Below are positions 15,684-61,630 of a stretch of DNA of 64,000 bases, piece after piece. Position 1 is the first letter of the stretch. Every line of letters begins with the position of its first letter. A model generated the notes under the pieces. That model searched no databases. It was not told the DNA's origin and was given only the letters and a program-made list of their open reading frames with translations. The stretch lies in the NCBI RefSeq assembly GCF_054482595.1, contig NZ_CM137008.1, one strand, 5' to 3'. Both the position numbers and the translations under genes were made by a program.

Positions 15684-15714
15684 TACACTTAAGGCAAATT
15701 AACTCCTCTTCGAA

Positions 15715-15736
15715 CCCCCGCTTGTCGGGGGTTTTT
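15715..15736 (+). terminator. Intrinsic terminator after zipA
   Basis: cccccg-cttgt-cggggg followed by ttttt. Confidence 0.75.
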
Positions 15737-15744
15737 AGCATTGA

Positions 15745-17769
<2,025 letters not shown>

Positions 17770-44943: not shown

Positions 44944-45295
44944 AGTTACCTTCTGTAGATACGAATTGTTGTATCGCAGAAGATTCCATGTCGACAGCGG
45001 TACACTCAATTGGTTGGGCCATCATGTACGACAATGGTTCCTGTAAAGAGTGTAAAGACTAGTCAGGACATAACCACGAGGAGCATGAATGCGGTGGCTC
45101 TACTTTATCACTGGCTGACTGCTTTCAGCTACTGATTATTAATCGTGCAAAGTAAATATTTTTCCGTACATAACAGTCTTGCATTTAACATACTGTTTTC
45201 ATTGATGCTTAGCAAAAATTGCCAGAGGTTAAGGATTGTCTTACTATTAAAGTGACTGAAGTTACAGGTTTTTTAGCGCGGCAGGAGGTTGAGCT

Positions 45296-45538
45296 ATGAT
45301 TTATTTATGGATGTTTCTCGCCCTGTGTATTGTCTGCGTAAGCGGCTACATCGGTCAGGTACTGAACGTGGTATCGGCGGTCTCTTCTTTCTTCGGCATG
45401 GTGATCCTCGCTGCACTCATTTATTACTTCACCATGTGGTTAACAGGCGGTAATGAACTGGTGACGGGGATATTTATGTTTCTTGCCCCGGCTTGTGGCT
45501 TGATGATTCGCTTTATGGTGGGGTATGGCAGGCGGTAG
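45296..45538 (+). CDS. yfdY: Small DUF2545 inner membrane protein
   Basis: 80 aa, two TM helices; matches YfdY. Confidence 0.8.
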   Translation: MIYLWMFLALCIVCVSGYIGQVLNVVSAVSSFFGMVILAALIYYFTMWLTGGNELVTGIFMFLAPACGLMIRFMVGYGRR

Positions 45539-45614
45539 TGGGTCAGGATGGCTCATTTGGGCAGGTGTTCACATCAGCATCAGACATGATTGCTCACCTG
45601 CCATGTGACAGACG

Positions 45615-45890
45615 CTATCGCACAGGATGAATAAGATAACTCGCCTTTGTCGGATAAGTGGGCGTGGTTTCTTCTGTGAGGTTTAATGGTGGCGCATCTT
45701 CTCTCATCTTAAACAAAATCGCCTGTGATGGCTGAAATTTTGTAGAGTGAGTTGTCGTCATCGCTGACGTTTTTTCCGTCTCTTTATAGCTCGCCTCACT
45801 ACCACCACCAGAAATAGAAAATGCAAAAACATTGCATGCCATAATAGAGACCAATAAAAATAAGCTAAAAAGCATTAAGTTTACTTTCAT
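45615..45890 (-). CDS. ypdI: Small lipoprotein YpdI
   Basis: 91 aa with lipoprotein signal (LLVSIMAC); matches YpdI. Confidence 0.8.
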   Translation of the reverse strand: MKVNLMLFSLFLLVSIMACNVFAFSISGGGSEASYKETEKTSAMTTTHSTKFQPSQAILFKMREDAPPLNLTEETTPTYPTKASYLIHPVR

Positions 45891-46032
45891 AGAAAGTTAT
45901 CCTGAAAATGGTTCACTGAAAACCTACGACGTTATGGCTGTATTTACATATAATTAATCAGTATTTACATCGATATAATAAATGACATCTCTTTGTGGTA
46001 TATAAGAATAGTTCTCTGTGACAGGAAGCAGA

Positions 46033-46050
46033 TTCCTACAACTGTAAGAT
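46033..46050 (+). promoter_or_regulatory. EvgA box upstream of yfdX
   Basis: TTCCTACA-AC-TGTAAGAT, 17/18 match to the EvgA 18-bp inverted-repeat consensus TTCYTACA-N2-TGTARGAA; a second half-site-like copy at 46073..46090. Confidence 0.6.
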
Positions 46051-46185
46051 TAAAATACTTCTTGCGATAATAACTACAAGTGTAAGATAACCCTTTCAAA
46101 ATGACCGTTGCTCTCTGATTTCTCATTTCATGCTCACCCAATATGATGGCGGCGTTTTCTAAAACTGTTAAAGAATGAGGTAAGT

Positions 46186-46818
46186 ATGAAACGTTTAATT
46201 ATGGCTACGATGGTCACAGCTATTCTGGCATCTTCAACTGTATGGGCTGCTGATAATGCACCGGTAGCGGCACAACAGCAAACTCAGCAAGTTCAGCAAA
46301 CCCAGAAAACGGCAGCAGCAGAGCGTATCTCTGAACAAGGTTTATATGCGATGCGTGACGTGCAGGTAGCGCGCCTGGCTCTGTTTCATGGCGATCCGGA
46401 AAAGGCAAAAGAACTGACCAATGAAGCTTCCGCTTTGTTGTCAGATGACAGTACCGAATGGGCAAAGTTCGCTAAGCCAGGTAAAAAGACCAATCTCAAT
46501 GATGACCAATATATTGTCATTAATGCATCTGTCGGAATTTCTGAGAGTTATGTAGCGACACCCGAAAAAGAAGCCGCGATAAAAATTGCCAATGAAAAAA
46601 TGGCGAAAGGGGATAAAAAGGGCGCAATGGAAGAGCTTCGCCTGGCCGGTGTTGGTGTAATGGAAAACCAATATCTGATGCCGCTTAAACAGACTCGTAA
46701 TGCACTTGCTGATGCGCAGAAACTGCTTGATAAAAAGCAATACTACGAGGCAAACCTGGCGCTTAAAGGTGCGGAAGATGGAATCATCGTCGATAGCGAA
46801 GCACTGTTTGTGAACTAA
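46186..46818 (+). CDS. yfdX: EvgA-regulated periplasmic protein YfdX
   Basis: 210 aa with signal peptide; matches YfdX. Confidence 0.9.
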
Positions 46819-46872
46819 TGCTGACTGGCAGTATATTGAGGTAAAGGATTTAACTCCCTCCAGACGACAATT

Positions 46873-46909
46873 TTTTATGACCACAATACGACAGGTTGTG
46901 GTCATAAAA
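46873..46909. terminator. 14-bp perfect inverted repeat (hairpin) downstream of yfdX
   Basis: ttttatgaccacaa-tacgacagg-ttgtggtcataaaa; could be a terminator or a protein-binding palindrome. Confidence 0.4.
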
Positions 46910-47061
46910 TTATTTGGCGCTCGCTGTTCTATAAACTCGCATTTTATATTCCTCAAAGTAAACCGCAATAATCCCGTGTCATCACAAATCATTTAATATG
47001 TTATATTTTATGGTACGCTTTAAAAAGCGTAATCATACCCTTACTTGTAAATCACCGGCGC

Positions 47062-47079
47062 TTCTTACAGTTGTAAGAA
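47062..47079 (+). promoter_or_regulatory. Perfect EvgA-box palindrome upstream of frc
   Basis: TTCTTACA-GT-TGTAAGAA, 18/18 symmetric match to the EvgA consensus, about 250 bp upstream of the frc start. Confidence 0.55.
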
Positions 47080-47329
47080 TAACATCACAAATGTCGCGAC
47101 TCTCTCTGATTACCACGAACCAATATTTATCATATTCTTCTTTTCGTCCTCACTACTTACCATGCAGAAAGGAATTGGAAGTAGCGATGAAATGATTTTC
47201 AGCACTTGATACAGGAATGTAAAAATATCGAGTGCAGCTACGACGATATTTTGCGGATTATTTATAGAGGCGTTATGCCTTAAATAAACGCTAAATTAAC
47301 ACATATTTAATTAACTAATAGGTATTGCT

Positions 47330-48580
47330 ATGTCAACTCCACTTCAAGGAATTAAAGTTCTCGATTTCACCGGTGTGCAATCTGGCCCATCTTGTACTCA
47401 AATGCTGGCCTGGTTTGGCGCTGACGTTATTAAAATTGAACGTCCCGGCGTTGGTGACGTAACGCGTCACCAGCTGCGAGATATTCCTGATATCGATGCG
47501 CTTTACTTCACCATGCTTAACAGTAACAAACGTTCTATTGAGTTAAATACCAAAACAGCGGAAGGCAAAGAGGTAATGGAAAAGCTGATCCGCGAAGCTG
47601 ATATCTTAGTCGAGAACTTTCATCCAGGGGCCATTGATCACATGGGTTTCACCTGGGAGCATATTCAAGAAATCAATCCACGTCTGATTTTTGGTTCGAT
47701 CAAAGGGTTTGATGAGTGTTCGCCTTATGTGAATGTAAAAGCCTATGAAAACGTTGCTCAGGCAGCGGGTGGCGCGGCATCCACTACGGGTTTTTGGGAC
47801 GGTCCGCCGCTGGTAAGCGCTGCAGCGTTGGGTGACAGCAACACCGGAATGCATTTACTGATCGGTTTACTTGCTGCTTTGCTGCATCGCGAAAAAACGG
47901 GGCGTGGGCAACGAGTCACCATGTCAATGCAGGATGCCGTATTGAACCTTTGCCGCGTGAAATTACGCGACCAGCAGCGTCTCGATAAATTGGGTTATCT
48001 GGAAGAATACCCGCAGTATCCGAATGGCACATTTGGTGATGCAGTTCCCCGCGGAGGTAATGCGGGTGGTGGCGGTCAGCCTGGCTGGATCCTGAAATGT
48101 AAAGGTTGGGAAACCGATCCTAACGCCTATATTTATTTCACTATTCAGGAGCAAAACTGGGAAAACACCTGCAAAGCCATCGGCAAACCAGATTGGATTA
48201 CCGATCCGGCATACAGTACAGCCCATGCCCGACAGCCACATATTTTCGATATTTTTGCTGAAATCGAAAAATACACTGTCACTATTGATAAACATGAAGC
48301 GGTGGCCTATTTGACTCAATTTGATATTCCTTGTGCACCGGTTTTAAGTATGAAAGAAATTTCACTTGATCCCTCTTTGCGCCAAAGTGGCAGTGTTGTC
48401 GAAGTGGAACAACCGTTGCGTGGAAAATATCTGACAGTTGGTTGTCCAATGAAATTCTCTGCCTTTACGCCAGATATTAAAGCTGCGCCGCTATTAGGTG
48501 AACATACCGCTGCTGTATTGCAGGAGCTGGGTTATAGCGACGATGAAATTGCTGCAATGAAGCAAAACCACGCCATCTGA
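47330..48580 (+). CDS. frc: Formyl-CoA:oxalate CoA-transferase (family III CoA transferase)
   Basis: 416 aa; matches Frc (YfdW). Confidence 0.95.
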
Positions 48581-48633
48581 TATTAACGGGGGCTTCTGGC
48601 TCCCAATTTATAAAAATTTCGAGGTTATTAATC

Positions 48634-50328
48634 ATGTCAGATCAACTTCAAATGACAGATGGTATGCATATCATCGTTGAAGCATTAAAACAGAATAATA
48701 TTGACACTATTTATGGTGTTGTAGGTATTCCTGTGACGGATATGGCGCGCCATGCCCAGGCGGAAGGCATTCGTTATATTGGTTTTCGTCATGAGCAGTC
48801 GGCAGGCTATGCCGCTGCGGCAAGCGGTTTTCTTACCCAAAAACCAGGGATCTGCCTGACAGTGTCTGCGCCAGGATTCCTCAATGGTTTGACCGCATTG
48901 GCCAACGCAACGGTAAATGGTTTTCCGATGATCATGATTAGCGGCTCCAGCGACCGCGCGATCGTCGACCTACAGCAAGGTGATTATGAAGAGCTGGACC
49001 AAATGAATGCGGCAAAACCGTATGCCAAAGCAGCATTTCGCGTTAATCAGCCGCAGGATCTTGGCATTGCATTGGCACGCGCTATCCGGGTCTCAGTATC
49101 GGGTCGCCCTGGCGGAGTTTATCTTGATTTGCCAGCAAATGTCCTGGCCGCGACGATGGAAAAAGACGAAGCGTTAACCACGATTGTAAAAGTTGAAAAT
49201 CCGTCGCCAGCATTATTGCCATGCCCGAAGTCAGTCACTAGCGCAATTTCGCTTTTAGCAAAAGCTGAACGGCCATTAATTATCCTTGGCAAAGGCGCGG
49301 CGTATTCACAAGCTGACGAACAGCTTCGTGAATTTATTGAAAGTGCCCAGATTCCATTCCTGCCAATGTCTATGGCGAAAGGGATCCTCGAAGATACGCA
49401 TCCACTTTCTGCGGCAGCTGCGCGTTCGTTTGCCCTGGCAAATGCTGACGTTGTCATGCTTGTTGGTGCACGACTGAATTGGTTACTGGCACACGGTAAA
49501 AAAGGATGGGCGGCAGATACACAGTTTATTCAACTGGATATTGAACCGCAGGAAATTGACAGCAACCGCCCCATTGCTGTGCCAGTCGTTGGCGATATTG
49601 CATCCAGTATGCAAGGTATGCTGGCAGAACTGAAACAAAACACATTTACGACTCCACTGGTATGGCGCGATATTTTAAATATCCACAAGCAGCAAAATGC
49701 ACAAAAAATGCATGAAAAATTGAGTACAGATACCCAACCATTAAATTACTTTAATGCATTGAGTGCTGTGCGCGATGTATTGCGTGAGAACCAGGATATT
49801 TATTTAGTTAATGAAGGGGCAAATACCCTGGATAATGCACGAAATATTATTGATATGTATAAACCACGTCGTCGTCTGGATTGTGGCACCTGGGGTGTCA
49901 TGGGCATCGGTATGGGCTATGCCATCGGTGCTAGCGTGACTTCTGGTTCTCCGGTTGTCGCCATTGAAGGTGATAGTGCTTTTGGTTTCAGTGGGATGGA
50001 AATTGAAACGATTTGTCGATATAACCTGCCGGTGACAATCGTTATTTTTAATAATGGCGGCATCTACAGAGGAGACGGTGTTGATCTCAGTGGCGCTGGT
50101 GCACCATCACCAACGGATCTGTTGCACCATGCAAGGTATGACAAATTAATGGATGCGTTTCGTGGCGTTGGCTATAACGTCACCACGACAGATGAACTTC
50201 GTCATGCTTTAACCACCGGTATTCAGTCGCGCAAACCGACCATTATTAACGTGGTCATCGACCCTGCAGCAGGAACTGAAAGTGGCCATATTACCAAACT
50301 GAACCCAAAACAAGTCGCTGGTAATTAA
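48634..50328 (+). CDS. oxc: Oxalyl-CoA decarboxylase (ThDP-dependent)
   Basis: 564 aa; ThDP-binding motif GDSAFGFSGMEIETICRYNLP; matches Oxc (YfdU). Confidence 0.95.
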   Translation: MSDQLQMTDGMHIIVEALKQNNIDTIYGVVGIPVTDMARHAQAEGIRYIGFRHEQSAGYAAAASGFLTQKPGICLTVSAPGFLNGLTALANATVNGFPMIMISGSSDRAIVDLQQGDYEELDQMNAAKPYAKAAFRVNQPQDLGIALARAIRVSVSGRPGGVYLDLPANVLAATMEKDEALTTIVKVENPSPALLPCPKSVTSAISLLAKAERPLIILGKGAAYSQADEQLREFIESAQIPFLPMSMAKGILEDTHPLSAAAARSFALANADVVMLVGARLNWLLAHGKKGWAADTQFIQLDIEPQEIDSNRPIAVPVVGDIASSMQGMLAELKQNTFTTPLVWRDILNIHKQQNAQKMHEKLSTDTQPLNYFNALSAVRDVLRENQDIYLVNEGANTLDNARNIIDMYKPRRRLDCGTWGVMGIGMGYAIGASVTSGSPVVAIEGDSAFGFSGMEIETICRYNLPVTIVIFNNGGIYRGDGVDLSGAGAPSPTDLLHHARYDKLMDAFRGVGYNVTTTDELRHALTTGIQSRKPTIINVVIDPAAGTESGHITKLNPKQVAGN

Positions 50329-50397
50329 ATACTGACATCGTCTCCTCTTGCCAACTCATTATGCGATGGTGAGGGGACCCTTATCGGAAATACTATT

Positions 50398-51342
50398 ATG
50401 CTAACATTTTTTATTGGCGATTTATTGCCTATTATCGTAATCATGCTGTTGGGTTATTTTAGCGGCAGACGAGAAACATTTTCAGAAGATCAAGCTCGGG
50501 CATTTAATAAACTGGTATTAAACTACGCGCTTCCTGCGGCTCTATTTGTATCTATTACCCGGGCAAACAGGGAAATGATTTTTGCGGACACTCGTCTGAC
50601 CCTTGTATCACTTGTGGTTATTGTCGGATGTTTCTTTTTCTCCTGGTTCGGTTGCTACAAATTTTTTAAACGTACTCATGCAGAAGCAGCTGTATGTGCA
50701 TTAATTGCAGGTTCACCTACTATTGGATTCCTGGGATTTGCAGTTCTCGATCCTATTTATGGTGATTCCGTATCAACAGGTTTAGTGGTAGCAATTATTT
50801 CTATTATTGTTAACGCAATTACTATTCCTATTGGTCTGTATTTGCTGAATCCTTCCTCAGGAGCGGATGGTAAGAAGAATAGTAATCTGAGCGCATTAAT
50901 TTCTGCGGCAAAGGAGCCTGTAGTATGGGCACCTGTTCTGGCAACGATCCTGGTGCTGGTTGGGGTAAAAATTCCGGCAGCATGGGACCCAACCTTTAAT
51001 CTGATTGCGAAGGCTAACTCAGGGGTAGCGGTATTCGCTGCGGGGTTGACTCTGGCTGCACATAAATTCGAGTTCAGTGCCGAAATTGCTTATAACACCT
51101 TCCTGAAGCTGATTCTGATGCCACTGGCGCTGCTTCTTGTTGGTATGGCATGTCATCTGAACAGCGAACATCTGCAGATGATGGTACTGGCAGGCGCATT
51201 ACCGCCGGCATTCTCCGGAATCATTATTGCCAGCCGGTTTAATGTCTACACCCGCACTGGTACAGCGTCATTGGCTGTGAGCGTACTGGGTTTTGTCGTC
51301 ACGGCTCCCTTGTGGATTTATGTCAGTCGACTGGTTTCATAA
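50398..51342 (+). CDS. yfdV: AEC-family putative transporter
   Basis: 314 aa polytopic membrane protein; matches YfdV. Confidence 0.9.
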
Positions 51343-51370
51343 TTAATCATGTTATTGATTTTACATAAAT

Positions 51371-51401
51371 GCCGAAGTGTCTTTTCACCTTCGGCTTTTT
51401 T
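51371..51401 (+). terminator. Terminator/attenuator-like hairpin between yfdV and yfdE
   Basis: gccgaag-N11-cttcggc followed by tttttt, ending 15 nt upstream of the yfdE start. Confidence 0.45.
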
Positions 51402-51415
51402 CAAGGCATAAGCAA

Positions 51416-52561
51416 ATGACAAATAATGAAAGCAAAGGGCCGTTTGAAGGCTTATTAGTTATCGATATGACACATGTCCTTAATGGACCTTTCGGAACTC
51501 AACTTCTTTGTAATATGGGCGCAAGGGTAATTAAAGTTGAGCCACCAGGTCATGGTGATGATACCCGCACATTTGGTCCCTATGTGGATGGACAGTCACT
51601 CTATTACAGTTTTATTAATCATGGTAAAGAGAGTGTGGTTCTTGATTTAAAGAATGATCACGATAAAAGTATATTTATAAATATGCTTAAACAAGCTGAT
51701 GTATTAGCTGAGAATTTTCGCCCAGGTACAATGGAAAAACTGGGGTTTTCATGGGAAAGGTTACAAGAAATCAACCCGCGCCTCATATATGCTTCATCGT
51801 CAGGTTTCGGACATACCGGTCCGCTAAAAGATGCTCCTGCCTACGATACCATCATTCAGGCAATGAGCGGGATAATGATGGAAACAGGGTACCCTGATGC
51901 TCCGCCAGTGCGTGTTGGTACCTCTCTTGCGGATCTATGCGGCGGTGTTTATTTATTCAGCGGAATAGTGAGTGCACTTTATGGCCGCGAAAAGAGCCAA
52001 AGAGGGGCGCATGTCGATATAGCGATGTTTGATGCCACGCTGAGTTTTCTGGAGCATGGTCTGATGGCATATATTGCGACAGGGAAGTCACCACAACGCC
52101 TGGGAAATCGCCATCCCTACATGGCACCTTTTGATGTTTTCGATACTCAGGATAAGCCGATTACGATTTGTTGTGGTAATGACAAGCTTTTTTCTGCGTT
52201 ATGCCAGGCACTGGAGCTTACGGAACTGGTTAATGATCCCAGATTTAGCAGCAATATTTTACGCGTACAAAACCAGGCTATTCTTAAACAATATATTGAG
52301 CGGACGTTAAAAACGCAGGCAGCTGAAGTTTGGTTAGCCAAAATACATGAAGTCGGTGTGCCCGTCGCGCCGTTATTAAGTGTGGCTGAGGCCATTAATT
52401 TGCCACAAACTCAGGCGAGAAATATGTTGATTGAAGCCGGGGGAATAATGATGCCGGGTAATCCGATAAAAATCAGTGGCTGCGCGGACCCGCATGTTAT
52501 GCCGGGAGCGGCAACGCTCGACCAGCATGGGGAGCAAATTCGCCAGGAGTTCTCATCATAA
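51416..52561 (+). CDS. yfdE: Acetyl-CoA:oxalate CoA-transferase (family III CoA transferase)
   Basis: 381 aa from internal ATG (MTNNESKGPFEGLLVIDMTH...); paralogous to frc. Confidence 0.9.
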   Translation: MTNNESKGPFEGLLVIDMTHVLNGPFGTQLLCNMGARVIKVEPPGHGDDTRTFGPYVDGQSLYYSFINHGKESVVLDLKNDHDKSIFINMLKQADVLAENFRPGTMEKLGFSWERLQEINPRLIYASSSGFGHTGPLKDAPAYDTIIQAMSGIMMETGYPDAPPVRVGTSLADLCGGVYLFSGIVSALYGREKSQRGAHVDIAMFDATLSFLEHGLMAYIATGKSPQRLGNRHPYMAPFDVFDTQDKPITICCGNDKLFSALCQALELTELVNDPRFSSNILRVQNQAILKQYIERTLKTQAAEVWLAKIHEVGVPVAPLLSVAEAINLPQTQARNMLIEAGGIMMPGNPIKISGCADPHVMPGAATLDQHGEQIRQEFSS

Positions 52562-52582
52562 ATGTAAGATGTGCTGGTAAAT

Positions 52583-52610
52583 AGCTCCCACATTTGAACA
52601 TTGTGGGAGC
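52583..52610. terminator. Hairpin between convergent yfdE and evgS
   Basis: agctcccaca-tttgaacat-tgtgggagc. Confidence 0.4.
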
Positions 52611-52616
52611 CGCTAT

Positions 52617-55600
52617 TTAGTCATTTTGCTGACAGAAAACAGCAATCTCCTGGTCCAGCTCTGCAATGTGTTCTTTTACAGAGTTCAGCAACTGAAGAAT
52701 TTCAGGCTTACTGTCATCTGAAACAGGTGTTATTTCTAACTGATGGCTAATATTAATCAACTTTTGCAAATTCAGGATGTTAGCCGCACCGTGGATGCGA
52801 TGAATACATTGATGGAAAGTTCTGTTATCGCCAGCTTCTAGTGCATGAAACGCAGCGGGTAGATCTTTATGCGTTTCATGCTGGAAAGTCATGAGAATCT
52901 CCTGCATCAGTTGTAGATCGTTCGCCGTATTATTTTTCAGGGCTTCGATATCAAGGTGGCGATACTGAGGTGCAATATGCGCAACCTGGTGTAACTGACT
53001 TAAATGTGTTTTCAGTACATCCAGGGTCAACGGTTTGAACAAACATAAGTTCATGCCGCAATTTAACCCTTTTTCACGTTCGTTAGCCTGTGCGTTGGCT
53101 GTAAGCCCCCAGATGGGTAAGGAAGAATTTTGCTCACGGAGTTTGCGAGTCAACTCAAAACCATCCATATTCGGCATATTAACGTCAGTAATAAGCAGAT
53201 CATAATGTTGCATACTGACTTTGTGTAGCGCTTGCACACCATCAGTGGCTTCATCAACATCATATCCTAATAGATTTAGCTGGCGTTTGAGTAATAGCCT
53301 GTTGGTCGGATGATCATCCGCGATTAATATGCTCAACTTTTCAGGTAGTGTGATGGGTTGTTCTGCTTTTGCCTCGACAGTCGCCACTTGTTGGATAATT
53401 TCTACCGGGATTGTGATCGTAAATGTTGTTCCTATGCCTGGATGACTTTCTAATGACAAATCACCCTGCATGTTTTTAATTAATTCTTTGCAGATCATTA
53501 AGCCTAAACCAGAACCTGTTTGCTGACGACCTGCACTTGTTTGGCTATAGCGTTTAAACAGTTGTTGTTGTTCTTCCTGCGATAATCCACTTCCAGAATC
53601 CATAATCGTCATTTTGATTACAGCGTGGTTGTCATCAATGTGAACCAGGGAGGTCGTAATTTTTACTGCCCCCTCGGTGGTAAATTTGAGAGCATTACTC
53701 AGTAAATTTGATAAGACCTGCTTAAACGCCTGAGGGTCGATCTTAACCAGGTAATGTTCAGGAAACGTACTGCTGCAACTTAATGCGATCGATTTGCTTG
53801 CAGCAATCGCACCGAAAGAGTGACAAGTGTTCTGGACTAAAGTAGGGATATCGACCCATTGTGGTTGAAGTTGATAGTTACCCGATTCAATTTTGTCGAC
53901 ATCAAGGATTTCACCAATTAAGCCGAGGAGTGATTGTCCGGTGGCGTAGGCAAGTGAAATCGCCTCCACCCGTTGCTCCTTGCTAAGACCAGAACCCGAC
54001 AGAAGTTCCAGGAAGCCCATAATGGAGCTTATTGGTGTTCTTATTTCGTGACTCATTGTTGCCAGAAACTGACTTTTTGCGACAGTTGCATTGATCGCTT
54101 TATTTCTCTCTACTTCGAGTGCATGAATTAAATCACGCGTCTCGGTAATATCTTGCCAACCACAAATATAAACAGCATGATCGCTGGCTGGCAGATTGCA
54201 TAATGTATGCCAGTGATTAATGCATCTTTTCTCGATGCCATTATCAATTTCAAATACCTGTGTGTATATTGTTCGATTTTCTTTCGTTTCTGCTGTGACT
54301 TCATGCGCATTAGAAAAAACATCTTTAAAGGGTGATTCACTGTTTTCTAATGGCAACATTGCATTTTTGTAGTAATCAGCAGTGAAATAATGTTCAAATG
54401 CACTATTGTGACTAATGACATTACCTTGCCAGTTTACAACATAAGTTGGATTCGGTAAGGAGTCCGAGAGCGCTTTCCGGAATGATATTTGGTTTTCTAA
54501 ATCACCCTGAATGACTTTACGACGACGAACTGAGCGTAACAGGTAGAATCCCCATAAAAGGCTACTGCCAACTAATAAAACGGATAATGTCGTAACAATA
54601 TAAAATTGCTCGCTATAGAGGTCCCATGTGTCAATGGTCACATTGGGCATTTTAATCCATTTTTCGGTCAGGCGCAGAACTTCGCTTGGGGGGATTGCAT
54701 TCAGTGCTTTATTAATAATATCCTTAAGTTCCGGTTCTCCGCGAGGAAAAGCGAACGAAAGCGATGCATTCGGAACGCCGGGAATAAGAAAATGATACAG
54801 TTCATTAGGATAGTAATGGTCGATCATGTAACGCGAATTTAACTGTGTCGCGACCAGAGCATCAAGTTCGCCTTCCTTGACCTTGTGAAATGCAGCGCTG
54901 GCGTTATCGACTTTTATCCACTCTACCTCCGGATACATCTCTTTTAATTGCGAATGAAGCTCATAATAATATGGAATGGCAACTTTCATTCCTTTTTTTA
55001 ATGTTTGTTCACTGTCAGGCGCTTTTTGCATGACAAAAACGTAAGGCGTTGTTATGAAGGCTTCAGCAAATAAAACATTATTTTCTCTATCTTCACTATA
55101 AATAGCACCGGGTAATATATCCCATCCGCCGGGATTCAGCTGTGTTCCAGCATGGATATTGTGTGAAACGGTGATCGGAGAAAAATTTAAACCTGTTTGC
55201 AAAGTAATAATATTAAGAATATCCCCCATAACGCCCCGAACCGAGCCATTTTCATCCGTCATAGAATAGGGAGGGGAGTAAGGATTTTCCAGCACCTTTA
55301 AATCGGGATGCTGCTTAATCCATTGTTTTTCATGTTCAGTGAGTTCTAATGGTTTGTTCAGAAAGGCCAGGTTTCCTGTATCAAGCCAATTTTGTGATAC
55401 TTCATAGCGAACTTCATTTGTCAAAGCATCAACAAATCGATTGAGTACTTCATTAAGAACGACAGATTCTTTTCTGGTCAAGAAAAAATTATATTGACGC
55501 GGTGAGTTATAATATTTCACTACATTTAAGGAGTGAGTGAAATAGCGGGAAATCATACTGCTGGTAATGATGTTACTACCAATAAAGTAATCATTCTGTC

Positions 55601-56210
55601 CGGCTGAGACGGATGCTAATGCCTGATATAAATTTGTAAAAGAGATAATTGTTGCTTTTGGAAATGATTGATGAATTACCTCGTCAGGGGGATAATTTGC
55701 TACTCGAGCAATATTTACTGGTTTTGATGAGGTAAGCGGTCGCATTGAATCGTGAAGGGTGGTGACCAGCGCCGGAAAGGTAATTATCAGTGGTTTGGTT
55801 GCAGCAATGTCATCATTAAGAGGCGGCGAAGCAACTAAATGTGATAACACTATATCGACTTCACCTTCTTCCAGCGCGTCCATTGCTTTTTGATGATCGG
55901 CGTATTCCCGGAGTGTTAATTTGATATTTAACGCTCTTTTTAAAAGATTTAAATAATCAGCATTAATACCACGCACCCGTTGCTGCGAATCGGTATGCAA
56001 CAACGTAGCCGTTTGGGACTTGTGTACTGCAATCACAAGATTTTTTTTGCTCGCTAACCAACGTAATTCCTTGTTGCTCAGACGTAGTGGATCAAGTGTG
56101 ACACGGTTGTTACTACTGATGCCACGATATTCGATGTAATCTTCGTCTGCGAAACTTATGGTCGACCAAAGACCACAACAGAGAAGAAAAATATAGGGTA
56201 AAAACTTCAT
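52617..56210 (-). CDS. evgS: Hybrid sensor histidine kinase EvgS (two periplasmic binding domains, PAS, HK, receiver, HPt)
   Basis: 1197 aa; H-box SHEIRTPISSIMG, receiver ILIADDHPTNRLLL; matches EvgS. Confidence 0.95.
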   Translation of the reverse strand: MKFLPYIFLLCCGLWSTISFADEDYIEYRGISSNNRVTLDPLRLSNKELRWLASKKNLVIAVHKSQTATLLHTDSQQRVRGINADYLNLLKRALNIKLTLREYADHQKAMDALEEGEVDIVLSHLVASPPLNDDIAATKPLIITFPALVTTLHDSMRPLTSSKPVNIARVANYPPDEVIHQSFPKATIISFTNLYQALASVSAGQNDYFIGSNIITSSMISRYFTHSLNVVKYYNSPRQYNFFLTRKESVVLNEVLNRFVDALTNEVRYEVSQNWLDTGNLAFLNKPLELTEHEKQWIKQHPDLKVLENPYSPPYSMTDENGSVRGVMGDILNIITLQTGLNFSPITVSHNIHAGTQLNPGGWDILPGAIYSEDRENNVLFAEAFITTPYVFVMQKAPDSEQTLKKGMKVAIPYYYELHSQLKEMYPEVEWIKVDNASAAFHKVKEGELDALVATQLNSRYMIDHYYPNELYHFLIPGVPNASLSFAFPRGEPELKDIINKALNAIPPSEVLRLTEKWIKMPNVTIDTWDLYSEQFYIVTTLSVLLVGSSLLWGFYLLRSVRRRKVIQGDLENQISFRKALSDSLPNPTYVVNWQGNVISHNSAFEHYFTADYYKNAMLPLENSESPFKDVFSNAHEVTAETKENRTIYTQVFEIDNGIEKRCINHWHTLCNLPASDHAVYICGWQDITETRDLIHALEVERNKAINATVAKSQFLATMSHEIRTPISSIMGFLELLSGSGLSKEQRVEAISLAYATGQSLLGLIGEILDVDKIESGNYQLQPQWVDIPTLVQNTCHSFGAIAASKSIALSCSSTFPEHYLVKIDPQAFKQVLSNLLSNALKFTTEGAVKITTSLVHIDDNHAVIKMTIMDSGSGLSQEEQQQLFKRYSQTSAGRQQTGSGLGLMICKELIKNMQGDLSLESHPGIGTTFTITIPVEIIQQVATVEAKAEQPITLPEKLSILIADDHPTNRLLLKRQLNLLGYDVDEATDGVQALHKVSMQHYDLLITDVNMPNMDGFELTRKLREQNSSLPIWGLTANAQANEREKGLNCGMNLCLFKPLTLDVLKTHLSQLHQVAHIAPQYRHLDIEALKNNTANDLQLMQEILMTFQHETHKDLPAAFHALEAGDNRTFHQCIHRIHGAANILNLQKLINISHQLEITPVSDDSKPEILQLLNSVKEHIAELDQEIAVFCQQND

Positions 56211-57244: not shown

Positions 57245-58408
57245 GTGGAACAGATTAATTCAAATAAAAAACATTCTAACAGAAGAAAATACTTTTCTTT
57301 ATTGGCGGTAGTTTTATTTATTGCGTTTTCAGGTGCCTATGCCTATTGGTCAATGGAATTAGAAGACATGATTAGTACAGATGACGCCTATGTCACGGGG
57401 AATGCAGATCCAATTTCTGCACAAGTCTCAGGTAGTGTCACTGTCGTTAATCATAAAGATACGAACTACGTTCGACAAGGTGACATTTTAGTTTCACTGG
57501 ATAAAACTGATGCCACTATCGCACTCAATAAAGCTAAAAATAATCTGGCAAATATTGTTCGGCAAACGAATAAACTGTACTTACAGGATAAACAATACAG
57601 TGCCGAAGTCGCTTCAGCACGTATTCAGTATCAACAATCTTTAGAAGATTATAACCGTCGTGTGCCTTTAGCGAAGCAGGGGGTTATTTCAAAAGAAACG
57701 CTGGAGCATACCAAAGATACGTTAATAAGTAGCAAAGCGGCATTGAATGCCGCTATCCAGGCTTATAAAGCGAATAAAGCTTTAGTAATGAACACACCAT
57801 TAAACCGTCAGCCACAAGTCGTGGAAGCGGCGGATGCAACCAAAGAAGCCTGGTTGGCGCTTAAACGTACGGATATTAAGAGTCCGGTTACCGGCTATAT
57901 TGCCCAGAGAAGTGTTCAGGTCGGCGAAACAGTGAGCCCCGGACAATCGTTAATGGCTGTCGTACCGGCACGTCAAATGTGGGTTAATGCCAACTTTAAA
58001 GAAACACAACTCACGGATGTACGGATTGGTCAATCGGTCAATATTATCAGCGATCTTTATGGTGAAAATGTTGTGTTTCATGGTCGGGTGACAGGGATCA
58101 ATATGGGAACCGGCAATGCGTTCTCCTTATTACCTGCACAAAATGCGACAGGGAACTGGATCAAAATCGTTCAGCGTGTACCGGTTGAAGTTTCTCTTGA
58201 TCCAAAAGAACTCATGGAACACCCCTTGCGCATTGGTTTATCGATGACTGCAACTATTGATACGAAGGACGAAGACATTGCTGAGATGCCTGATCTGGCT
58301 TCAACCGTGACCTCCATGCCTGCTTATACCAGTAAGGCTTTAGTTATCGATACCAGTCCGATAGAAAAAGAAATTAGCAACATTATTTCGCATAATGGAC
58401 AACTTTAA
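57245..58408 (+). CDS. emrK: Multidrug efflux membrane fusion protein (EmrA paralogue)
   Basis: 387 aa; N-terminal TM anchor then coiled-coil/HlyD fold; matches EmrK. Confidence 0.93.
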   Translation: MEQINSNKKHSNRRKYFSLLAVVLFIAFSGAYAYWSMELEDMISTDDAYVTGNADPISAQVSGSVTVVNHKDTNYVRQGDILVSLDKTDATIALNKAKNNLANIVRQTNKLYLQDKQYSAEVASARIQYQQSLEDYNRRVPLAKQGVISKETLEHTKDTLISSKAALNAAIQAYKANKALVMNTPLNRQPQVVEAADATKEAWLALKRTDIKSPVTGYIAQRSVQVGETVSPGQSLMAVVPARQMWVNANFKETQLTDVRIGQSVNIISDLYGENVVFHGRVTGINMGTGNAFSLLPAQNATGNWIKIVQRVPVEVSLDPKELMEHPLRIGLSMTATIDTKDEDIAEMPDLASTVTSMPAYTSKALVIDTSPIEKEISNIISHNGQL

Positions 58409-61399: not shown

Positions 61400-61630
61400 T
61401 TAGATGATAAATGACAGCAGGAATGTGCCCGCCAGAGCGACGACTGAAGCGATAAATGTCGCTGTCGTATAGTATTTAAATGTTTCATTGAGCGTAGCGC
61501 CGCAATATTGCTTCACCAGCCAGAAAAGCGAGTCCGTAACGATCGTGCAGCCAATTGCGCCTGAACCGATAGCAATCGCAATAATTTCCGGGCTGATGTC
61601 GGGATACAGCGGCAGCACAATGATCCATAT
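61400..61630 (-). pseudogene. dsdX: 5'-truncated remnant of D-serine permease dsdX (GntP family), C-terminal ~75 codons only
   Basis: Minus-strand frame reads ...[76 protein letters not shown] then stop 17 nt upstream of dsdA; frame closes with a stop at 61631..61633, and unrelated sequence follows; a full dsdX would be ~445 codons. Confidence 0.7.

What the first reader, a model, noticed from the sequence alone, without database searches (positions are those of the whole stretch)
51343..51415. Terminator-like hairpin inside the oxalate operon just before yfdE
A GC stem (gccgaag/cttcggc) followed by six T residues sits between yfdV and yfdE, ending 15 nt before the yfdE start. If yfdE is cotranscribed with frc-oxc-yfdV, this would act as an attenuator or partial terminator, lowering yfdE expression relative to the upstream genes.
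Basis: seen in the sequence. Interest (0 to 1): 0.3.

Follow-up and report, generated by a model that had tools for sequence, protein, structure and literature searches.

The report
Leaky terminator before yfdE gene
The hairpin is real and is most likely an ordinary, leaky transcription stop signal that lets only a minority of oxalate-operon transcripts continue into the last gene, yfdE; this kind of element is well known.

Summary
The window is E. coli chromosome. The 73-nt yfdV–yfdE spacer (51343-51415) holds a 9-bp stem with one bulge (51371-51395, 7 contiguous GC-rich pairs) directly followed by T6 (51396-51401). The T tract ends 14 nt before the yfdE ATG. The hairpin folds at -12.4 kcal/mol (z = -4.8) and stays formed in every upstream context tested. 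It is single-copy.

- **Chance:** only 8 sites of this quality occur in the 128 kb of both strands. Six of the other seven sit at known transcription-unit ends.
- **Conservation:** the 40-nt core is identical in 5284 of 5426 complete E. coli genomes. Its stem is unchanged in a diverged Escherichia, and a Yersinia copy keeps the hairpin through two compensatory pair changes.
- **Expression:** in an evgS-constitutive mutant, published log2 inductions are frc 8.37, oxc 6.59, yfdV 6.16 and yfdE 3.57, a roughly 6-fold step at this junction.
- **Alternatives:** I found no competing antiterminator structure, no plausible yfdE promoter and no Rfam match.

The best reading is a constitutive, leaky Rho-independent terminator inside the operon, a new instance of a well-known kind. 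Direct 3'-end mapping is still missing, because the operon is silent in the datasets I could reach. Interest is low.

The parts
50398..51342 (+). yfdV, a transporter gene and the last gene before the hairpin. Its stop codon TAA is at 51340-51342.
   Evidence: ORF list; RefSeq annotation of matching E. coli records.
51343..51370 (+). AT-rich spacer between the yfdV stop and the hairpin. It ends in ATAAAT, a partial A tract. This is the most variable part of the spacer in E. coli.
   Evidence: Sequence. Sampled variants fall here. The full 73-nt spacer is identical in 4690 records against 5284 for the 40-nt core.
51371..51379 (+). 5' arm of the terminator hairpin, GCCGAAGTG.
   Evidence: Pair probability about 0.94 in all contexts tested.
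51380..51385 (+). Hairpin loop, TCTTTT.
51386..51395 (+). 3' arm of the hairpin, CA(C)CTTCGGC, with C51388 bulged.
   Evidence: The stem is invariant in the sampled E. coli variants and in Escherichia SCPM-O-B-8794.
51396..51401 (+). T6 tract (U tract in the RNA), immediately after the closing G-C pair. This is the predicted release site.
   Evidence: It is T7 in L010 and A+T8 in Yersinia. One E. coli genome has T5.
51403..51418 (+). yfdE translation start region: AAGG Shine-Dalgarno-like motif at 51403-51406 and ATG at 51416-51418. It lies downstream of the hairpin and is not sequestered by it.
51416..52561 (+). yfdE (acetyl-CoA:oxalate CoA-transferase, 381 aa), the gene reached only by read-through.
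   Evidence: Function from PMC3720670.
52584..52610 (.). Hairpin in the convergent yfdE-evgS spacer (GCTCCCACA...TGTGGGAGC). Its U tracts are poor in both directions. It is the likely, non-canonical, end of the operon.

Best explanation
This is a constitutive, leaky Rho-independent (intrinsic) terminator at the 3' end of yfdV, inside the EvgA-activated frc-oxc-yfdV-yfdE transcription unit.

RNA polymerase coming from the frc promoter transcribes the hairpin and then the U6 tract. The hairpin folds in the exit channel while the weak rU:dA hybrid is in the active site. Most complexes release there, giving a frc-oxc-yfdV mRNA whose 3' end is also protected by the hairpin. A minority, roughly one in six if the microarray step is taken at face value, read through and make the yfdE message. 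YfdE is then translated from its own AAGG/ATG, which begins 2 nt after the U tract.

**Shown here:** the structure, its statistical rarity, its conservation, the absence of a competing structure or a nearby promoter, and the published expression step.

**Inferred:** that the step is caused by termination, and the efficiency of about 80%.

A plausible rationale comes from the proposed role of YfdE as a 'priming' accessory enzyme (PMC3720670), which would be needed in smaller amounts than Frc and Oxc. Limiting strong induced transcription from running antisense into the convergent evgS gene is a further, speculative, benefit.
For: **Anatomy.** The stem has 9 bp, 7 of them contiguous and 5 of those G-C. 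The loop is 6 nt and U6 starts directly after the closing G-C. The energy is -12.4 kcal/mol, z = -4.8.

**Specificity of the class.** Of the 7 other sites in the window that meet the same criterion, 6 lie at transcription-unit ends. These are the ends of gltX, the alaXW tRNAs, pdeA/nupC (both strands), lpxP and crr/pdxK. Real count is 8 against 3.3 +/- 1.5 in shuffles.

**Conservation.**
- The 40-nt core is 100% identical in 5284 of 5426 complete E. coli genomes. By contrast, only 210 of 5407 records reach 99% identity or more over the surrounding 1 kb.
- None of the sampled variants touches the stem.
- In Escherichia SCPM-O-B-8794, third codon positions of yfdV differ by 22% and the spacer by 16%. 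The 14 stem bases are nevertheless unchanged and the T tract is longer.
- Yersinia vastinensis has ACCGAAGTA/TACTTCGGT plus T8. Two pairs are changed on both sides and the bulge is removed.

**Robustness.** Stem pair probability is about 0.94 with 30-400 nt of upstream context. No complementary stretch longer than 6 nt lies nearby.

**Expression.**
- Log2 induction in the evgS-constitutive mutant is frc 8.37, yfdX 6.97, oxc 6.59, yfdV 6.16 and yfdE 3.57 (PMC4283999 supplement).
- At pH 5.8, the Ribo-seq top 20 contains yfdX 4.89, frc 4.78, yfdV 4.40 and oxc 4.28. yfdE is absent, so it lies below 3.33 (PMC10746267).

**Read-through is needed.** The literature treats yfdE as co-expressed in yfdXWUVE/yfdWUVE (PMC3720670). 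The consensus scan reports no sigma-70-like site on the + strand between 48674 and 51398. The one at 51398-51427 overlaps the start codon. No yfdE-sense transcription start is listed in the dRNA-seq table of PMC7815308.
Against: No direct 3'-end or read-through measurement exists in the material I could reach. The Term-seq tables either do not list the operon or are not held as text.

Fold changes are not absolute levels. A higher basal yfdE signal, probe effects or faster decay of the distal segment could produce part of the step.

The microarray also shows a 1.8 log2 step between frc and oxc, where the hairpin has no U tract. So not every step needs a canonical terminator.

In most other Enterobacterales, the hairpin at this junction lacks a good U tract. 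The feature conserved across genera is therefore the stem-loop, not the terminator as such.

The hairpin energy and the T6 length are at the weak end of the terminators found in this window.
Confidence: 0.7

Rival explanations
1. The hairpin is mainly an mRNA-stability or processing element. It acts as an intercistronic stem-loop that blocks 3'-to-5' exonucleases after endonucleolytic cleavage. The frc-oxc-yfdV segment would then outlive the yfdE segment, with little actual termination.
For: All three intercistronic spacers of the operon carry a strong stem-loop, in E. coli and in 8 other Enterobacterales loci. At the yfdV-yfdE junction most other genera have unrelated hairpins without a usable U tract. 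The feature conserved across genera is therefore a hairpin, not a terminator. The microarray gradient also steps down at frc-oxc, where there is no U tract.
Against: In Escherichia and Yersinia vastinensis the hairpin is followed by 6-8 uninterrupted U directly at the stem base. That is the defining signal for release and is not needed for a decay barrier. The T tract itself is conserved in about 97% of E. coli genomes. The two roles are not exclusive, because a terminator hairpin also protects the 3' end it creates.
Confidence: 0.12
2. The hairpin is an efficient terminator that ends a frc-oxc-yfdV operon. yfdE is then a separate unit with its own promoter.
For: The terminator anatomy is canonical. 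yfdE responds much less to EvgS activation than the upstream genes.
Against: Only 14 nt separate the T tract from the ATG. No promoter-like site precedes it on the + strand; the nearest overlaps the start codon. No yfdE-sense start site appears in the dRNA-seq list of PMC7815308. yfdE is still induced about 12-fold (3.57 log2) by EvgS activation, as expected for read-through. The literature treats it as part of the operon.
Confidence: 0.07
3. This is a regulated attenuator. Either an alternative antiterminator fold sets read-through, or ribosomes do so by translating the 20-codon ORF at 51349-51411, which crosses the hairpin.
For: An ATG 7 nt after the yfdV stop opens an ORF that runs through the hairpin. 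In E. coli it stops 4 nt before the yfdE ATG. Equivalent ATGs exist in the SCPM-O-B-8794 and Yersinia spacers.
Against: No competing structure exists: stem probability is about 0.94 in all contexts and there is no nearby complement. The ORF has no Shine-Dalgarno sequence. Its frame and peptide are not conserved between the three related spacers, and no such ORF exists in the other genera. A 20-codon open frame has a chance probability of about 0.2 in sequence this AT-rich (my estimate).
Confidence: 0.03
4. The terminator hairpin is the 3' end of a small regulatory RNA derived from the yfdV 3' UTR, for example an Hfq-binding one.
For: An AU-rich stretch followed by a terminator hairpin with a U6 tail resembles the Hfq-binding module of 3'-UTR-derived sRNAs (my own knowledge). 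The spacer core is more conserved than the neighbouring coding DNA.
Against: No Rfam family matches, even at E <= 10. The 28 nt upstream of the hairpin are the most variable part of the spacer, which is the opposite of what a seed region would show. No transcript or interaction data were found.
Confidence: 0.03
5. This is a chance inverted repeat next to a T run, with no function.
For: Shuffled sequence gives about 3.3 such sites per 128 kb. One of the 8 real hits, on the - strand in fryC, looks like chance.
Against: About 0.002 such sites are expected in this spacer and strand. The placement is 29 nt after a stop codon. The stem and T tract are conserved while the flanking spacer drifts, and Yersinia shows compensatory changes. 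The expression step coincides with the site.
Confidence: 0.04

Closest known systems
Canonical E. coli Rho-independent (intrinsic) terminators, such as those at the gltX, crr and lpxP ends in this same window
   Same: GC-rich stem closed by G-C, a short loop, and an uninterrupted U tract starting at the stem base. It lies just downstream of a stop codon, is unidirectional and is single-copy.
   Different: It lies between two genes described as one operon, and only 14 nt before the next start codon. It is slightly weaker than the others in the window: -11.2 kcal/mol against -12.7 to -14.2, with T6 only.
Intra-operon partial terminators that set unequal gene doses. From my own knowledge, not tested here: rplL-rpoB, rpsU-dnaG T1, rpsO-pnp t1, glnA-glnL.
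   Same: A fixed leaky terminator between cistrons, so the distal gene receives a set fraction of the transcripts. The expression step at the junction fits this.
   Different: Termination efficiency and read-through have not been measured for this site. No factor dependence is known.
Intercistronic stem-loop mRNA stabilisers. From my own knowledge: REP elements in malE-malF, and the Rhodobacter puf operon hairpins.
   Same: A stable hairpin downstream of the more abundant cistrons. Hairpins sit at all three junctions of this operon in many genera.
   Different: It is not a REP or other repeat family member, being single-copy per genome. It also carries a canonical U tract, which a decay barrier does not need.
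Leader or riboswitch transcription attenuators (trp, his, pyrBI type)
   Same: A terminator hairpin placed upstream of a coding region.
   Different: It has no alternative antiterminator fold, no conserved leader peptide and no Rfam match. It follows a gene rather than a promoter.

Membership tests
Rho-independent (intrinsic) terminator | Stable GC-rich stem-loop (about 5-14 bp, loop 3-8 nt) | tested here: met
   The stem has 9 bp with one bulge, the loop is 6 nt, and the energy is -12.4 kcal/mol at z = -4.8.
Rho-independent (intrinsic) terminator | U-rich tract starting within 0-2 nt of the stem base | tested here: met
   U6 at 51396-51401 directly follows the closing G-C pair. It is T7 or T8 in the related Escherichia and Yersinia spacers.
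Rho-independent (intrinsic) terminator | Located downstream of a coding region on the sense strand, with the hairpin free of ribosomes | tested here: met
   The hairpin starts 29 nt after the yfdV stop codon. A terminating ribosome would not reach it; this last point is inference.
Rho-independent (intrinsic) terminator | Transcript 3' ends map to the U tract, and release occurs with RNA polymerase alone | not testable with these tools
   No 3'-end data for this operon were found in reachable datasets.
Intra-operon partial terminator | Upstream and downstream genes are co-transcribed from one promoter | tested here: inconclusive
   The literature calls yfdXWUVE/yfdWUVE one EvgA-activated unit (PMC3720670). 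yfdE is co-induced and no promoter-like site precedes it. No transcript mapping was seen.
Intra-operon partial terminator | A drop in the abundance of the downstream gene at the site, with residual read-through | tested here: met
   Log2 induction is 6.16 for yfdV and 3.57 for yfdE. yfdE is absent from the Ribo-seq top 20 that contains the four upstream genes. This evidence is indirect, because it rests on fold changes.
Regulated transcription attenuator (leader peptide or riboswitch) | Mutually exclusive antiterminator structure or sensing element | tested here: not met
   Stem probability is about 0.94 in all contexts and no complementary segment lies nearby. There is no Rfam hit. The ORF crossing the hairpin is not conserved.
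REP/BIME-type repeated extragenic palindrome | Many copies per genome of a shared consensus | tested here: not met
   The median is one place per genome among 5314-5380 genomes.
3'-UTR-derived Hfq sRNA | A discrete small transcript with a conserved seed upstream of the terminator | tested here: inconclusive
   The region upstream of the hairpin is the least conserved part of the spacer. There is no Rfam match. No transcript data were available.

The most novel reading that the evidence does not exclude
The frc-oxc-yfdV-yfdE operon may be 'punctuated' throughout. Each of its three intercistronic spacers carries a stem-loop that is kept by position, though not by sequence, across Enterobacterales. 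Together these would set a fixed expression ratio of the four proteins. In that scheme the Escherichia/Yersinia lineage upgraded the last stem-loop to a true terminator, so that the priming enzyme YfdE is made in small amounts and induced transcription does not run antisense into the convergent sensor gene evgS. A more exotic variant would have read-through coupled to translation of the short ORF at 51349-51411.
Probability: 0.12. Interest if true: 0.4.

Novelty: new member of a known kind. Interest (0 to 1): 0.2.

Why it matters
The finding would refine the operon map of a well-studied acid and oxalate response locus. The 'yfdXWUVE operon' would become a strongly expressed frc-oxc-yfdV core plus a read-through-dependent yfdE. 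This explains why yfdE responds about 6-fold less to EvgS/EvgA activation. It also fits the proposal that YfdE is only a priming enzyme.

There is a practical use for anyone engineering or quantifying this pathway: deleting the hairpin should raise YfdE. The finding does not open a new question in transcription biology, because leaky internal terminators are common.

Tried and rejected
- **Rfam.** A scan of 45000-53000 at E <= 10 found nothing at the site.
- **The tool's terminator scan.** It missed the site because of the bulge, so I replaced it with my own scan.
- **Term-seq and 3'-end supplements.**
  - The PMC7815308 tables list no 3' end in the operon.
  - The PMC12207403 supplements hold no mention of the genes.
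  - The supplements of PMC6061677, PMC9023263, PMC4161252 and PMC12259150 are not held as text.
  - The operon is probably silent in the standard media used.
- **Full-text searches.** Searches for yfdV/yfdE plus 'terminator', and for the older gene names, found no paper describing this hairpin.
- **Papers not held.** Masuda and Church 2002 and Fontenot 2013 are not held. The PRECISE-1K supplement is not held.
- **Antiterminator search.** None found.
- **uORF hypothesis.** Not conserved.
- **Repeat-family hypothesis.** The element is single-copy.
- **Own-promoter hypothesis.** No candidate promoter.
- **Role on the minus strand.** The hairpin also folds there, but the tail AUUUAUGUAAAAUC is poor.
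- **MAFFT alignment.** Aligning the E. coli, SCPM-O-B-8794 and Yersinia spacers misaligned the Yersinia hairpin. The compensatory changes were therefore read directly, and no formal covariation statistic was attempted with three sequences.
- **The SCPM-O-B-8794 spacer variant.** It was not found in any of the 5426 complete E. coli genomes.

Full report
**What is there.** The window is E. coli chromosome. A 1-kb piece around the finding is 100% identical to strain XH990 and is present in 5405 of 5426 complete E. coli genomes.

RefSeq annotation of matching records gives this gene order:
- yfdX 46186-46818
- frc 47330-48580
- oxc 48634-50328
- yfdV 50398-51342
- yfdE 51416-52561
- evgS, convergent, at 52617-56210

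Read directly, it contains:
- GCCGAAGTG at 51371-51379
- loop TCTTTT at 51380-51385
- CA(C)CTTCGGC at 51386-51395
- TTTTTT at 51396-51401
- CAAGGCATAAGCAA, then the yfdE ATG at 51416

**Is it more than chance?**
- The hairpin folds at -12.4 kcal/mol, z = -4.82, with none of 200 shuffles as stable.
- The built-in consensus scan missed it because of the single bulge.
- I therefore scanned the whole window for hairpins of -10 kcal/mol or better that abut a run of six or more T. Eight sites are found on both strands, against 3.3 +/- 1.5 in 40 dinucleotide-preserving shuffles.
- That is about 0.002 expected in this spacer on this strand.
- With the annotation, six of the other seven hits lie at the ends of known transcription units: gltX, the alaXW tRNA pair, pdeA/nupC (counted on both strands), lpxP and crr/pdxK. 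The criterion therefore picks real terminators.
- The yfdV-yfdE site is the only one inside a unit that the literature describes as one operon.

**Conservation.**
- The element is single-copy per genome, so it is not a REP-like repeat.
- The 40-nt core 51366-51405 is 100% identical in 5284 of 5426 complete genomes.
- The whole 73-nt spacer is identical in 4690 records. Most variation therefore lies in the AT-rich 5' part.
- In seven sampled variant genomes, no change touches the stem. One genome has T5.
- In a diverged Escherichia (strain SCPM-O-B-8794, locus L010), yfdV third codon positions differ by 22% and the spacer by 16%. All 14 bases of the 7-bp stem are nevertheless unchanged and the T tract is T7.
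- Yersinia vastinensis carries a homologous spacer whose hairpin is ACCGAAGTA-CATATT-TACTTCGGT followed by A and T8. Compared with E. coli, two pairs are changed on both sides (G-C to A-T) and the bulge is gone. This is what selection on the structure predicts.

**Wider comparison.**
- I retrieved further Enterobacterales loci with the same frc-oxc-yfdV-yfdE order. They include Winslowiella, two Klebsiella sp., two Erwinia sp. and several unnamed assemblies.
- Most carry a strong hairpin at the yfdV-yfdE junction, but of unrelated sequence and usually without a usable U tract. Two loci have only weak hairpins.
- The frc-oxc and oxc-yfdV spacers also hold a hairpin in every locus. In the E. coli window these are at 48588-48604 and 50340-50378.
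- In Providencia the order is yfdV-frc-yfdE, and the frc-yfdE junction is tight with no hairpin.
- A stem-loop after yfdV is therefore widespread. A canonical terminator there is a feature of the Escherichia/Yersinia-type spacer.
- Control spacers in the same window show that hairpins between co-directional genes are not rare. They occur at zipA-ligA, ucpA-cysP and cysA-cysM, the last of which looks like a REP element (my reading). The tightly coupled ptsH-ptsI-crr spacers have none.

**Is it regulated?** I found no sign of regulation.
- With 30 to 400 nt of upstream context, the stem keeps a mean pair probability of about 0.94. Nothing longer than 6 nt within 370 nt upstream can pair with either arm.
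- Rfam has no match, even at E <= 10.
- A 20-codon ORF (51349-51411) crosses the hairpin. It lacks a Shine-Dalgarno sequence, changes frame and peptide among the three related spacers, and is absent from the other genera.
- The yfdE AAGG/ATG lies downstream of the U tract and is not sequestered.

**Does yfdE depend on read-through?**
- Only 14 nt separate the U tract from the ATG.
- The promoter scan reports nothing on the + strand between 48674 and 51398. The site at 51398-51427 overlaps the start codon.
- The dRNA-seq table of PMC7815308 lists no sense-strand start for yfdE. It lists only an antisense start inside the gene.
- The literature treats yfdE as co-expressed with the upstream genes. 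EvgA boxes lie before yfdX and before frc (PMC3720670, citing Masuda and Church).

**Expression evidence.**
- In an evgS-constitutive mutant, the published log2 inductions are frc 8.37, yfdX 6.97, oxc 6.59, yfdV 6.16 and yfdE 3.57 (PMC4283999 supplement). That is a 2.6 log2, or about 6-fold, step exactly at this junction.
- At pH 5.8, the Ribo-seq top 20 contains yfdX, frc, yfdV and oxc at 4.3-4.9 log2. yfdE is absent, so it lies below 3.33 (PMC10746267 Table 1).
- These are fold changes, not absolute levels, and they do not separate termination from decay. They are what a terminator releasing roughly 80% of polymerases would give.

**What is missing.** No 3'-end mapping of this site could be found. 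The Term-seq tables I could read do not list the operon, probably because it is silent in standard media. Several supplements are not held as text. No paper in the searchable library mentions a terminator between yfdV and yfdE. RefSeq annotates nothing there.

**Verdict.**
The word 'attenuator' should be read as a fixed leak, not a regulated switch.
- Mechanistically this is an ordinary Rho-independent terminator placed inside an operon. Its hairpin probably also stabilises the frc-oxc-yfdV message.
- The likely purpose is a low dose of the accessory 'priming' enzyme YfdE (role proposed in PMC3720670). It may also limit antisense transcription into evgS, since the hairpin at the operon's end (52584-52610) has poor U tracts.
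- It is a new instance of a well-known kind, and of low general interest.

Noticed in passing
window 48588-48604 (frc-oxc spacer) and 50340-50378 (oxc-yfdV spacer); also L046-L054: Both other intercistronic spacers of the operon also carry a strong stem-loop. These are GGGGGCTTCTGGCTCCC at -9.8 kcal/mol and a structure of about -16 kcal/mol; neither has a U tract. Hairpins occur at the same junctions in 8 other Enterobacterales loci. The frc-oxc hairpin shows apparent covariation, for example GAGGAGCC...GGCTCCTC in Winslowiella.
   Followed up: partly
L041 (E. coli ETEC1701, NZ_CP122938.1); insertion point corresponds to window 51401/51402: An IS200C element is inserted exactly after the last T of the terminator's T6 tract. 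It separates the hairpin from yfdE.
   Followed up: partly
window 51349-51411 (+): A 20-codon ORF (MLLILHKCRSVFSPSAFFKA) starts 7 nt after the yfdV stop, runs through the hairpin and ends 4 nt before the yfdE ATG. It has no Shine-Dalgarno sequence and is not conserved in frame or peptide.
   Followed up: yes
window 52584-52610: The convergent yfdE-evgS spacer has a 9-bp hairpin with poor U tracts on both strands. The only canonical terminator in the cluster therefore lies before yfdE, not after it.
   Followed up: partly
window 46873-46909: A long AT-flanked hairpin (TTTTATGACCACAA...TTGTGGTCATAAAA) lies just after yfdX. It looks like a bidirectional terminator and separates yfdX from the frc promoter region.
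   Followed up: no
window 15684-15753 (zipA-ligA spacer): Another terminator-like hairpin lies between two co-directional genes: CCCCCGCTTGTCGGGGG followed by TTTTT.
   Followed up: no
L045 (GCA_045584115.1): This is a close relative, with YfdV 92% identical. yfdE is split into 136- and 228-aa ORFs, and evgS and oxc are fragmented, so these look like pseudogenes. The hairpin and T tract are identical to the window; the spacer differs by one base upstream of them.
   Followed up: no
L004, L005 (Providencia alcalifaciens, P. rustigianii): The gene order is yfdV-frc-yfdE. The frc-yfdE junction is very short and has no hairpin.
   Followed up: partly
window about 52250, minus strand (approximate mapping of K-12 position 2488340): PMC7815308 lists a transcription start antisense to yfdE. 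Such a transcript would run toward the hairpin from the other side, where the fold is kept but the tail is weak.
   Followed up: no
window 57245-58408 and about 61400-61620: In the matching RefSeq record (XH990), emrK is annotated as frameshifted and dsdX as a partial remnant. I did not check these against the window sequence.
   Followed up: no
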